Source of the DNA: a candidate division WOR_3 bacterium SM23_42
GTDB lineage: Bacteria > Hydrothermota > Tepidihabitantia > SM23-42
Length of the DNA stretch: 64,000 nucleotides
Assembly (NCBI GenBank): GCA_001303785.1
Contig: LJUJ01000002.1
Coordinates: forward strand, 3,867-67,866
Direction: 5' to 3'
Of the stretch, positions 27,270 through 28,517 are shown in pieces. A program made the translations under genes and the position numbers. The first letter of the stretch is position 1; every line of letters begins with the position of its first letter. A model generated the notes under the pieces. That model was not told where the DNA came from. It ran no database searches and saw nothing but the letters and a program-made list of their open reading frames with translations.

Positions 27270-27542
27270 TCAGCAGCAGTTGCAGGTGGGTTCTTTTGAG
27301 CCTTTTAGTGCGGCTACAAATTGGGCGACGGCGCAGCCGAATCCTGCTTCTACCGTGATTGCTTCGACCGGACAGTTGCGCGCACACGCGCCACATTCCA
27401 TGCATGCCGTGGGTCTGATGAGTTGGGCGACATGTCCGGTCTGAGTAAAGACGCCATGTGGACAGACGCTACTACACATGCCGCAGCCAGTGCAGAGCTC
27501 GGCATTATATCTAAGGGTAGTTTCCAGGTATTTGCTTTTCAT
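27270..27542 (-). CDS. hgcB: HgcB, 2x[4Fe-4S] ferredoxin of the mercury methylation system
   Basis: Two CxxCxxCxxxCP motifs (CTGCGMCSSVCP and CMECGACARNCP). Terminal vicinal Cys pair ...CNCC*. Lies 12 nt downstream of hgcA. Confidence 0.8.
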   Translation of the reverse strand: MKSKYLETTLRYNAELCTGCGMCSSVCPHGVFTQTGHVAQLIRPTACMECGACARNCPVEAITVEAGFGCAVAQFVAALKGSKEPTCNCC

Positions 27543-27554
27543 TAGCTATGCTCG

Positions 27555-28517
27555 TTAACGGATAAACCTGAATATAACGCCTAACAGGGTGCCACCGCAA
27601 AGCATCCAAAACATCACCGGGAAATAGGCGGAGATTTCGCGCTCCACGCCGCTCCTGGATGCGTATGTTGTTACCCCTGTAGTAGTGAGTCCAATAAAAC
27701 CAACAAGCGACGGTAGGATGAGGAGATAGGGCAATGCATAACCAACTCTTTTCCACCACTCGGCAAGAGGATTATCAAAGAATGCCAAAAGAAAGAATGG
27801 TATTGCAACGATGCTACCCAGGAGGAATCCCTTGGTGCTGAAATTTGGGGTCGGTATCCATGGCAGAAGAATAGGAAATATGATTAAATTGGCAACTACA
27901 ATTGCCAGTATGGCGAGAGCCGCGAGCGGGCCACTCACTAAGTAAAGAAAAACCGTTATTATAATCGCCGGCAACAACATATGGGTTACCTCTACGGGGA
28001 TTAATATCAAGCGGTCTAGCAGGTTGAAACGTACGCGTCGCATCTCGGGTGTGGCCTTGTAATTTCTTAGGTATTCTGGAAGATCTTCTGCTCTAACCGG
28101 ACCATATTCGATTCTAAATCCGGTTCGTTCAGTTACCTCATGAGCAGCGACCCCTGGCGCGCCCAATTGAGGTAGGATCAGCATGTCGTGGTCAACGTGT
28201 TGCTTCAGTTTCACGCTATCGATACGGTGTATCAGTTCTTCGGTGCCGAACGTACCTTTACCGGCAGCACACCACACGTTAATACCTTTTGTATCTAGCA
28301 CTAATATGTAGCAGTCGACACCAAAAAGTGCAGCGCGCAGTTTGTCAAAACTTAGTCCATAGTTTGCAGTGACAAAAACACTTGATTGCTTGTCGGGATT
28401 TCCGAGTGTATAGAGCCCTGGTTGGACGCGAAAGCGGTCGCGCCTGAGTCCGGTGCGGGCGAGAAGGTGATTTAGCTTGTCTCGCAAAGTGAACGTGCTT
28501 GTGGTATGTTTGATCAT
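27555..28517 (-). CDS. hgcA: HgcA, corrinoid protein of the mercury methylation system
   Basis: Diagnostic cap-helix motif GINVWCAAGKGTF in the N-terminal CFeSP-like domain. C-terminal five-TM domain. Confidence 0.85.
   Translation of the reverse strand: MIKHTTSTFTLRDKLNHLLARTGLRRDRFRVQPGLYTLGNPDKQSSVFVTANYGLSFDKLRAALFGVDCYILVLDTKGINVWCAAGKGTFGTEELIHRIDSVKLKQHVDHDMLILPQLGAPGVAAHEVTERTGFRIEYGPVRAEDLPEYLRNYKATPEMRRVRFNLLDRLILIPVEVTHMLLPAIIITVFLYLVSGPLAALAILAIVVANLIIFPILLPWIPTPNFSTKGFLLGSIVAIPFFLLAFFDNPLAEWWKRVGYALPYLLILPSLVGFIGLTTTGVTTYASRSGVEREISAYFPVMFWMLCGGTLLGVIFRFIR

What the first reader, a model, noticed from the sequence alone, without database searches (positions are those of the whole stretch)
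27270..28517. hgcA-hgcB mercury-methylation gene pair
The 320-aa protein at 27555..28517 carries the HgcA-specific cap-helix motif N(V/I)WCA(A/G)GK, here GINVWCAAGKGTF, in an N-terminal CFeSP-like corrinoid domain, followed by a five-helix membrane domain. Twelve nt downstream is a 90-aa ferredoxin with two CxxCxxCxxxCP clusters and the C-terminal vicinal Cys pair (...CNCC) typical of HgcB. This gene order and these motifs are the accepted genetic marker for Hg(II) methylation capability. If this is an FCB-type candidate lineage, as the T9SS cargo suggests, it adds a methylator in a poorly sampled clade.
Basis: partly seen in the sequence, partly recalled or inferred. Interest (0 to 1): 0.85.

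Follow-up and report, generated by a model that had tools for sequence, protein, structure and literature searches.

The report
Known hgcAB mercury-methylation genes, WOR-3

Summary
On the minus strand, 27555..28517 encodes a 320-aa protein with GINVWCAAGKGTF (Cys83). Twelve nt downstream, 27270..27542 encodes a 90-aa ferredoxin with two CxxCxxCxxxCP motifs, Cys70 and a ...CNCC end. Both pass NCBI's curated equivalog models: HgcA 394 bits (cut-off 275) and HgcB 99.4 bits (cut-off 99, borderline). The CFeSP/CdhE and fused HgcAB-like models fail. A structure model shows a corrinoid-type domain plus five long helices, and its best PDB match is the published HgcAB model. In a small tree the protein sits in a WOR-3 clade of HgcA, with CFeSP (28% identity) as a distant outgroup.

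[quoted passage not shown] Gionfriddo et al. 2020 (Table S1) already list that genome as hgcAB+. At least 45 related WOR-3-type HgcA clusters exist in public data. The pair is therefore real and already known.

Small additions from this work:
- A near-consensus sigma-70 promoter sits at the same position upstream of hgcA in six WOR-3 loci.
- The flanking genes are not conserved.
- hgcB is missed by several gene callers.

Methylation by any WOR-3 organism remains untested.

The parts
27555..28517 (-). [quoted passage not shown]
   Evidence: ORF. NCBIfam NF040863 HgcA_corrinoid scores 394.4 bits against a cut-off of 275, covering model positions 2-324 of 325. It is 100% identical to KPK64450.1. 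It is 53% identical over full length to the HgcA of a Methanospirillum hungatei MAG.
28053..28433 (-). [quoted passage not shown]
   Evidence: Pfam PF03599 CdhD matches residues 29-145. PDB CFeSP chains 2h9a, 4c1n and 4djd align to residues 29-150 with E about 3e-8. Foldseek gives rmsd 2.4-2.6 A over about 130 residues.
28248..28286 (-). Cap-helix block GINVWCAAGKGTF (residues 78-90). The Cys83 codon is at 28269..28271, and Cys83 is the predicted lower axial Co-thiolate ligand, equivalent to ND132 Cys93.
   Evidence: Read directly from the sequence. The block is invariant in 42 homologues and in the 25 HgcA sequences. It aligns to Thr in CFeSP. The role of Cys93 comes from the mutagenesis summarised in PMC7305189 and the spectroscopy in PMC11588087.
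27564..28022 (-). Transmembrane domain of HgcA (residues 166-318) with five helices.
   Evidence: The AlphaFold2 model has helices at 166-195, 197-220, 226-247, 254-280 and 288-318. Hydropathy peaks agree. This matches the five-helix TMD described for HgcA.
27270..27542 (-). hgcB: a 90-aa 2x[4Fe-4S] ferredoxin that starts 12 nt after the hgcA stop codon.
   Evidence: NF040864 HgcB_ferredoxin scores 99.4 bits against a cut-off of 99. Pfam Fer4 families match. It aligns with hgcB ORFs found directly downstream of hgcA in 20 other loci.
27459..27494 (-). HgcB first CxxCxxCxxxCP motif (Cys17, 20, 23, 27).
   Evidence: Regular-expression match on the translated sequence.
27369..27404 (-). HgcB second CxxCxxCxxxCP motif (Cys47, 50, 53, 57).
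   Evidence: Regular-expression match on the translated sequence.
27333..27335 (-). HgcB Cys70, the equivalent of the essential ND132 Cys73. It lies 13 residues after the last cluster Cys, the same spacing as in ND132.
   Evidence: Searches show the GxGCA column conserved in 20 of 21 sequences. The ND132 numbering and mutagenesis are in PMC7305189.
27273..27284 (-). HgcB C-terminal Cys-rich tail CNCC (Cys87, 89, 90), equivalent to ND132 Cys94/95.
   Evidence: The function of the tail cysteines is described in PMC7305189.
28542..28569 (-). Probable hgcAB promoter: TTGACA, 16 nt, TATAAT (12 of 12). The -10 hexamer ends 24 nt before the hgcA ATG.
   Evidence: One search finds it as the only 12/12 match in 27000..30000. 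One search finds 10-12 of 12 matches with a 16-nt spacer at the same distance (23-25 nt) upstream of hgcA in five other WOR-3 loci whose surrounding sequence differs. Function is inferred and has not been shown.

Best explanation

HgcA is a membrane-anchored corrinoid methyltransferase. HgcB is a dicluster ferredoxin.

The mechanism below is inferred by homology with the purified Pseudodesulfovibrio mercurii ND132 enzyme:
1. The two [4Fe-4S] clusters of HgcB pass low-potential electrons to the cobalamin on HgcA, giving Co(I).
2. S-adenosylmethionine methylates Co(I), giving methyl-Co(III). HgcA Cys83 supplies the lower axial thiolate.
3. The methyl group is transferred to thiol-bound Hg(II), giving methylmercury.
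4. HgcB Cys70 and the C-terminal Cys87/89/90 tail probably handle the Hg(II) substrate or the CH3Hg+ product.

The pair appears to be transcribed from its own near-consensus sigma-70 promoter, independently of its neighbours.

What is shown here is the gene identity, all signature residues, the domain architecture and the source genome. What is inferred is cofactor binding, expression and actual Hg methylation by this organism.
For: - **Curated models:** the equivalog HMMs are passed, HgcA at 394 bits against 275 and HgcB at 99.4 against 99.
- **Cap helix:** GINVWCAAGKGTFGT is invariant across bacterial and archaeal HgcA.
- **Relatives:** the protein is 53-54% identical over full length to the HgcA of Methanospirillum hungatei and Methanolobus vulcani. 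M. hungatei is an experimentally shown methylator (Yu et al. 2013, cited).
- **Structure:** the model has a beta/alpha domain plus five TM helices. Its best PDB hit is 9a0b_A, the ND132 HgcAB model, at E 8.8e-18 and 37% identity.
- **HgcB cysteines:** they map one-to-one onto ND132 C73 and C94/95.
- **Pair conservation:** hgcB follows hgcA directly in all 20 other loci examined.
- **Mechanism:** taken from PMC11588087 and PMC7305189.
- **Source and prior listing:** KPK64450.1, White Oak River SMTZ contigs, and Table S1 of PMC7573106.
- **Promoter:**
Against: - No biochemical or physiological test exists for any WOR-3 HgcAB. The Hg literature notes that many hgcAB+ lineages known only from genomes have never been tested.
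- The HgcB score is only 0.4 bits above its cut-off, probably because the WOR-3 tail is short.
- The cap-helix region has low confidence in the cofactor-free model (pLDDT below 50 for residues 78-89).
- No Shine-Dalgarno sequence is evident before either gene.
- The native physiological role of HgcAB is unsettled in the field (abstract of 10.1101/2022.10.17.512643).
Confidence: 0.93

Rival explanations
1. The protein is a Wood-Ljungdahl corrinoid iron-sulfur protein subunit (AcsC / CdhE / 'carbon monoxide dehydrogenase', as GenBank names it) that carries methyl groups for acetyl-CoA synthesis rather than for Hg.
For: The GenBank and UniRef name is 'carbon monoxide dehydrogenase'. Pfam assigns only PF03599 CdhD. 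The PDB sequence hits are all CFeSP large subunits.
Against: - The homology is confined to about 125 residues at 28% identity.
- The CdhE gamma model scores 75 bits against a cut-off of 306.
- There is no N-terminal [4Fe-4S] domain or TIM barrel. A five-helix membrane domain is present instead.
- The cap-helix Thr of CFeSP is replaced by the HgcA-specific Cys.
- No acs or cdh genes lie nearby.
Confidence: 0.01
2. It is a non-methylating HgcAB-like paralogue, of the kind represented by the fused HgcAB proteins of Pyrococcus, Atribacteria and similar organisms.
For: The fused-type model NF043039 gives a partial hit of 211 bits. Fused forms are basal in HgcA trees.
Against: - The genes are separate, with a 12-nt spacer.
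- 211 bits is below the 285 cut-off, while the true HgcA model is passed by 119 bits.
- The protein clusters with unfused HgcA of methanogens and Deltaproteobacteria.
Confidence: 0.02
3. It is a genuine HgcAB, but Hg methylation is incidental. The native substrate or role is something else, such as another metal(loid) or a one-carbon or redox function, and in situ it may contribute little methylmercury.
For: - The field regards the evolutionary function as open (abstract of 10.1101/2022.10.17.512643).
- An ArsR-type regulator sits next to hgcAB in the WOR-3 relative L085.
- hgcAB expression did not track MeHg production in cultures (PMC7438021).
Against: Nothing in the sequence distinguishes this from the best explanation. 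All residues needed for Hg methylation in ND132 are present. In the window the ArsR-like gene is 14 kb away.
Confidence: 0.25
4. The pair is intact in sequence but silent or decaying in this lineage, a relic of horizontal transfer.
For: The flanking genes differ in every WOR-3 locus examined. One relative (L085) has an HgcB that lacks the essential Cys and most tail cysteines.
Against: - Both ORFs in the window are full length with every signature residue.
- HgcA is 66-82% identical across many WOR-3 genomes, with invariant functional blocks.
- A near-consensus promoter is conserved in position in six loci.
- GC content is 0.49 for hgcAB against 0.45 for the window, so it is not strongly foreign.
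Confidence: 0.04

Closest known systems
HgcA/HgcB of Pseudodesulfovibrio mercurii (Desulfovibrio desulfuricans) ND132, the genetically and biochemically characterised system (model 9a0b; PMC7305189, PMC11588087)
   Same: - The two-gene order is hgcA then hgcB.
- Both have the corrinoid domain with the NVWCAAGK cap helix and axial Cys, plus a five-helix TMD.
- HgcB has two CxxCxxCxxxCP motifs, the extra Cys 13 residues after the last cluster Cys, and C-terminal cysteines.
   Different: - Structural alignment gives only about 37% identity.
- The proteins are shorter (320 and 90 aa), so residue numbers shift (Cys83 for Cys93, Cys70 for Cys73).
- The tail has three cysteines (CNCC) rather than CC.
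- No ArsR-like regulator lies adjacent in the window.
- Activity is untested.
WOR-3-type HgcA clade from metagenomes, for example P0016, P0029 ('mercury methylation corrinoid protein HgcA [candidate division WOR-3 bacterium]') and P0039 on the WOR-3 chromosome CP070802.1
   Same: - The proteins are 66-82% identical and almost all 320 aa, followed by a short (90-92 aa) HgcB.
- The promoter sits at the same position.
- They form one clade in the tree.
   Different: The flanking genes are different in every locus. The window's copy is the SM23_42 sequence itself.
HgcA of methanogens (Methanospirillum hungatei, Methanolobus, Methanoregula)
   Same: They are 52-57% identical over the full length, including the TMD, and the cap-helix block is identical.
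   Different: The archaeal HgcB proteins carry longer Cys/Gly-rich tails. They come from a different domain of life, which fits the known patchy, HGT-shaped distribution.
Corrinoid iron-sulfur protein large subunit (AcsC/CdhE; PDB 2h9a, 2ycl, 4djd)
   Same: The Rossmann-like corrinoid-binding domain is shared (rmsd about 2.5 A). Both are Co(I)/methyl-Co(III) carriers.
   Different: - Identity is 28%.
- CFeSP has Thr, not Cys, at the cap-helix position.
- CFeSP has an N-terminal [4Fe-4S] domain and a TIM barrel and no membrane domain.
- Its methyl donor is methyl-THF via MeTr, whereas HgcAB uses SAM.

Membership tests
HgcA (mercury methylation corrinoid protein, NF040863) | Full-length match to the curated equivalog HMM above its cut-off. 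| tested here: met
   394.4 bits against a cut-off of 275, E 3.6e-118, model positions 2-324 of 325.
HgcA (mercury methylation corrinoid protein, NF040863) | Cap-helix motif N(V/I)WCA(A/G)GK with the strictly conserved Cys. | tested here: met
   NVWCAAGK lies at residues 80-87, with Cys83. It is in register with 42 homologues and with the Thr of CFeSP.
HgcA (mercury methylation corrinoid protein, NF040863) | C-terminal membrane domain of five TM helices. | tested here: met
   AlphaFold2 helices at 166-195, 197-220, 226-247, 254-280 and 288-318, with supporting hydropathy. No dedicated topology predictor was available.
HgcA (mercury methylation corrinoid protein, NF040863) | Groups with HgcA rather than CFeSP/CdhD or fused HgcAB-like proteins. 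| tested here: met
   - An NJ tree on the corrinoid domain rooted on CFeSP places it within a WOR-3 HgcA clade.
- The paralogue HMMs score below their cut-offs.
- Only one CFeSP sequence and no fused sequences were in the tree, so this is a light test.
HgcA (mercury methylation corrinoid protein, NF040863) | Binds cobalamin with Cys-thiolate ligation and is methylated by SAM. | not testable with these tools
   Inferred from the ND132 enzyme (PMC11588087).
HgcB (mercury methylation ferredoxin, NF040864) | Match to the curated equivalog HMM above its cut-off. | tested here: met
   99.4 bits against a cut-off of 99, which is borderline. E 7.7e-29.
HgcB (mercury methylation ferredoxin, NF040864) | Two CxxCxxCxxxCP [4Fe-4S] motifs. 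| tested here: met
   Residues 17-28 and 47-58.
HgcB (mercury methylation ferredoxin, NF040864) | A strictly conserved extra Cys about 12-13 residues after the second motif (ND132 Cys73), and at least one C-terminal Cys. | tested here: met
   Cys70 lies in GFGCA, 13 residues after Cys57. The tail cysteines are Cys87, Cys89 and Cys90.
HgcB (mercury methylation ferredoxin, NF040864) | Encoded immediately downstream of hgcA on the same strand. | tested here: met
   The spacer is 12 nt. The same arrangement is seen in 20 other loci.
hgcAB as a functional marker | The organism produces methylmercury from Hg(II). | not testable with these tools
   The organism is uncultured. The only WOR-3 isolate paper does not mention mercury or hgc.
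CFeSP large subunit / CdhE gamma (NF003195, PF03599 full architecture) | Full-length match, including the N-terminal [4Fe-4S] domain and the TIM barrel. | tested here: not met
   74.9 bits against a cut-off of 306. Only model positions 322-448 of 450 match. PDB hits cover only residues 29-150.
HgcAB-like fusion protein (NF043039) | A single polypeptide that fuses the HgcA-like and HgcB-like parts, scoring above the cut-off. | tested here: not met
   There are two separate ORFs. The scores are 211.6 and 51.7 bits against a cut-off of 285.

The most novel reading that the evidence does not exclude
WOR-3 (Caldifarciminota) hgcAB is transcribed constitutively from a conserved, near-consensus sigma-70 promoter with a short leader, unlinked to any regulator. 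If so, members of this phylum would be steady and possibly significant methylmercury producers in sulfate-methane transition-zone sediments. This guild is catalogued in reference lists but has been ignored both in WOR-3 physiology papers and in Hg budgets.
Probability: 0.25. Interest if true: 0.4.

Novelty: already known. Interest (0 to 1): 0.15.

Why it matters
hgcAB is the accepted genetic marker for microbial methylmercury production, so each carrier lineage matters for predicting where this neurotoxin forms. This particular carrier has been in the ORNL hgcAB reference package since 2019-2020, so the finding adds no new lineage.

The practical value is limited to three points:
- **Annotation:** the public record still calls HgcA 'carbon monoxide dehydrogenase', and hgcB is often not called as a gene. 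Annotation-based surveys would therefore miss the pair.
- **Literature gap:** recent WOR-3 genomic and isolation papers do not mention Hg methylation.
- **Expression hypothesis:** the conserved promoter offers a simple, testable hypothesis about expression.

Tried and rejected
- **Functional link to neighbours.** I looked at the upstream Cys-rich GcvH-like gene (28723..29826), the sigma-54 response regulator (29986..31338) and the PAS histidine kinase. I rejected a link because none of them is next to hgcAB in four other WOR-3 loci, and hgcA has its own promoter.
- **Adjacent ArsR-like regulator, as in ND132.** There is none at the locus. The window's ArsR/HTH_5-type gene (12975..13556) is 14 kb away, although its 75%-identical orthologue abuts hgcB in L085.
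- **Text searches.** Searches for the accession KPK64450 and for 'SM23_42' in main texts found nothing relevant. The genome name was found only in a supplementary table.
- **Terminator after hgcB.** The scan found no minus-strand terminator-like site in 27000..30000, so the 3' end of the transcript is undefined.
- **Full phylogeny.** The curated HMM cut-offs and the small rooted tree already give an unambiguous answer.

Full report
**Observation.** Two adjacent ORFs lie on the minus strand.
- hgcA is 27555..28517 and encodes 320 aa. It contains NVWCAAGK at residues 80-87 within GINVWCAAGKGTF. Cys83 is encoded at 28269..28271.
- hgcB is 27270..27542 and encodes 90 aa. It has CTGCGMCSSVCP (17-28), CMECGACARNCP (47-58), a further Cys70, and ends in TCNCC.
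- The spacer between the hgcA stop codon and the hgcB ATG is exactly 12 nt.

Only the strand went unstated.

**Identity of the proteins.** Against NCBI's curated models:

| Protein | Model | Bits | Cut-off | Result |
|---|---|---|---|---|
| 320 aa | HgcA_corrinoid equivalog (almost end to end) | 394.4 | 275 | passes |
| 320 aa | fused HgcAB-like | 211.6 | 285 | fails |
| 320 aa | CdhE gamma (C-terminal ~125 model positions only) | 74.9 | 306 | fails |
| 90 aa | HgcB_ferredoxin | 99.4 | 99 | passes, borderline |

- Pfam sees only the generic CdhD and Fer4 families. This explains the weak public annotation.
- Against PDB sequences, only the C-terminal corrinoid domain of CFeSP large subunits matches, at E about 3e-8. 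In that alignment the HgcA Cys lies opposite the Thr of 'DTDGTSVLTAW'. This is the relationship described for ND132 Cys93.
- An alignment with 41 homologues from bacteria and methanogens shows G78-T92 invariant, apart from near-invariant A85.
- An AlphaFold2 model (mean pLDDT 75) gives a beta/alpha domain followed by five long helices at 166-195, 197-220, 226-247, 254-280 and 288-318.
- The model's best Foldseek hit in the PDB is 9a0b_A, the integrative model of ND132 HgcAB (E 8.8e-18, 37% identity, full length). CFeSP structures follow, covering only about 130 residues at 26-28% identity.
- The protein is 53% and 54% identical over essentially its whole length to the HgcA of a Methanospirillum hungatei MAG and of Methanolobus vulcani. 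M. hungatei is a demonstrated methylator (Yu et al. 2013, cited).
- A neighbour-joining tree on the corrinoid domain, rooted on CFeSP, puts the window's protein in a clade of sequences labelled WOR-3, inside HgcA. Identity to CFeSP is 28%, against at least 62% to every HgcA.

**HgcB details.** I extracted dicluster ORFs directly downstream of hgcA in 20 other loci and aligned them.
- The window's HgcB aligns without gaps through both cluster motifs.
- Cys70 occupies the GxGCA column that corresponds to ND132 Cys73. It lies 13 residues after the last cluster Cys, as in ND132.
- The tail carries three cysteines. ND132 mutagenesis showed that Cys73 is essential and that at least one tail Cys is needed.
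- WOR-3 HgcBs are short (90-92 aa). This probably explains the borderline HMM score.

**Source and prior knowledge.**
- The same locus occurs on contigs of about 200 kb from White Oak River SMTZ metagenomes.
- Supplementary Table 1 of Gionfriddo et al. [quoted passage not shown] It lacks the asterisk that marks hgcA-only entries.
- That paper's abstract and Figure 7 legend name WOR-3 among hgcAB-bearing phyla. McDaniel et al. 2020 also mention 'WOR groups' among putative methylators.
- The homology search returned 45 further 90%-identity clusters at 65-82% identity. Several are labelled WOR-3, including hits on complete chromosomes, and one is already named 'mercury methylation corrinoid protein HgcA'.
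- The gene pair, the genome and the lineage are therefore already known as putative methylators. The clade is not poorly sampled at the sequence level.
- Two recent WOR-3-focused papers, a 181-MAG survey and the first isolate, do not mention mercury or hgc.
- NCBI taxonomy now calls the phylum Caldifarciminota and places it directly under Pseudomonadati, not in the FCB group.
A C25 peptidase and an SBBP-repeat protein both carry Por_Secre_tail domains.

**Mechanism.** This is inferred by homology with the purified ND132 complex (PMC11588087).
1. The two [4Fe-4S] clusters of HgcB relay electrons that reduce the HgcA-bound cobalamin to Co(I).
2. SAM, not methyl-THF, methylates it to methyl-Co(III), which is stabilised by the Cys thiolate (here Cys83).
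3. The methyl group is transferred to Hg(SR)2 to give CH3Hg-SR.
4. The HgcB tail cysteines and Cys70 are proposed to shuttle the Hg species (PMC7305189).

All sequence requirements are met here. Cofactor binding, expression and activity are not shown for any WOR-3 member.

**Context and expression.**
- The pair lies between a convergent fused MFS/spermidine-synthase gene (24745..27075, +) and an upstream same-strand gene for a Cys-rich protein with a GcvH-like domain (28723..29826). Beyond that are a sigma-54 response regulator, an M54 peptidase and a PAS histidine kinase.
- None of these neighbours accompanies hgcAB in four other WOR-3 loci. I infer no functional link.
- In the 205-nt gap upstream of hgcA there is a perfect TTGACA-16-TATAAT (28569..28542). 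It is the only 12/12 match in the 3-kb scan.
- Five other WOR-3 loci have 10-12 of 12 matches with the same 16-nt spacer. Their -10 hexamers end 23-25 nt before the start codon, although the surrounding sequence differs.
- This supports an autonomous, probably strong, sigma-70 promoter with a short leader.
- No minus-strand terminator-like site was found after hgcB.

**Rivals.**
- *CFeSP/'carbon monoxide dehydrogenase' reading.* It is excluded by architecture, HMM cut-offs and the tree.
- *Non-methylating fused-type paralogue.* It is excluded by the separate genes and HMM cut-offs.
- *Hg methylation as a side activity of an enzyme with another native role.* This cannot be excluded and is an open question for the whole family.
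- *A silent relic.* This is unlikely, given intact residues, clade-wide conservation and the conserved promoter. One relative (L085) does have an HgcB lacking the essential Cys.

**Verdict.** The pair is a textbook hgcAB and is already catalogued for this very genome. Interest is low. The residual value lies in the annotation gap and the conserved promoter.

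Noticed in passing
window 28542..28569 (-); L001, L002, L085, L086, L088 upstream of hgcA: A near-consensus sigma-70 promoter (TTGACx, 16 nt, TATAAT) sits at the same distance (the -10 ends 23-25 nt before the ATG) upstream of hgcA in all six WOR-3 loci examined. In the window the match is a perfect 12 of 12. No Shine-Dalgarno sequence is evident.
   Followed up: partly
L085:6973..7248 (+), downstream of HgcA P0025: In a WOR-3 relative whose HgcA is 74% identical, the hgcB ORF (not called by the source) has Tyr in place of the strictly conserved Cys73-equivalent (GFAYAAAQ) and a tail with a single Cys (PSSHSC). 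This may be an inactive HgcB or an assembly error.
   Followed up: no
window 27270..27542 (-); L081, L083, L084, L085: The 90-aa hgcB is not called as a gene in several public records of this same contig. Its exact sequence is absent from the NCBI sources of the protein collection. HgcA is named 'carbon monoxide dehydrogenase' in GenBank. Surveys based on annotation would miss the pair.
   Followed up: partly
window 28723..29826 (-): This ORF is 367 aa (351 aa as called elsewhere). It has an N-terminal region with three similar Cys-rich stretches (for example CIWMKAGVIEYRMCTKNYDCKNCEFD and CRYMLTGDFSYKICPNNYECWHCTVD) and a C-terminal GcvH-like domain (PF01597, 67 bits). By eye, the lipoyl-Lys position appears to be Gln (IGSAQRMVS). 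Its function is unknown, and it is not conserved beside hgcAB in relatives.
   Followed up: partly
window 12975..13556 (-) and 11728..12963 (-); L085:7371..9199: An ArsR/HTH_5-type 193-aa protein and a 411-aa beta-lactamase-family protein lie 14 kb from hgcAB in the window. Their orthologues (75% and 79% identical) lie immediately downstream of hgcB in L085. This recalls the ArsR-like regulator of hgcAB described in ND132.
   Followed up: partly
L085:1622..5008 (-); L086:12063..12963 (-): CbiM/CbiQ/ABC-ATPase cobalt-transporter genes lie divergently next to hgcA in L085 and about 5 kb from it in L086. This is a plausible link between cobalt supply and a corrinoid enzyme. They are not seen near hgcAB in the window.
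   Followed up: no
window 16102..17610 (+): A full-length haem catalase (PF00199, 648 bits) lies in the genome of a presumed anaerobic sediment bacterium that carries the O2-sensitive HgcAB. The only WOR-3 isolate is microaerophilic.
   Followed up: no
window 53252..55483 (+), 13774..15468 (+), 34151..35674 (-): These are T9SS-type cargo proteins. One is a gingipain-like C25 peptidase with Por_Secre_tail (46.8 bits). One is an SBBP beta-propeller protein with Por_Secre_tail and FlgD_ig. One is a TAT-signal protein with a nitroreductase-like domain and a FlgD_ig C-terminal domain.
   Followed up: partly
window 24745..27075 (+): A 776-aa fused membrane (MFS-like) and spermidine-synthase protein (NF037959; PF01564) is convergent with hgcB. 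A radical SAM gene lies just upstream of it (23467..24660).
   Followed up: no
window 58632..60173 (+): This is a B12-binding radical SAM protein (PF02310 + PF04055 + DUF4070). It shows that the organism has at least one other corrinoid-dependent enzyme.
   Followed up: no
taxonomy: NCBI now names candidate division WOR-3 as the phylum Caldifarciminota and places it directly under Pseudomonadati rather than within the FCB group.
   Followed up: yes
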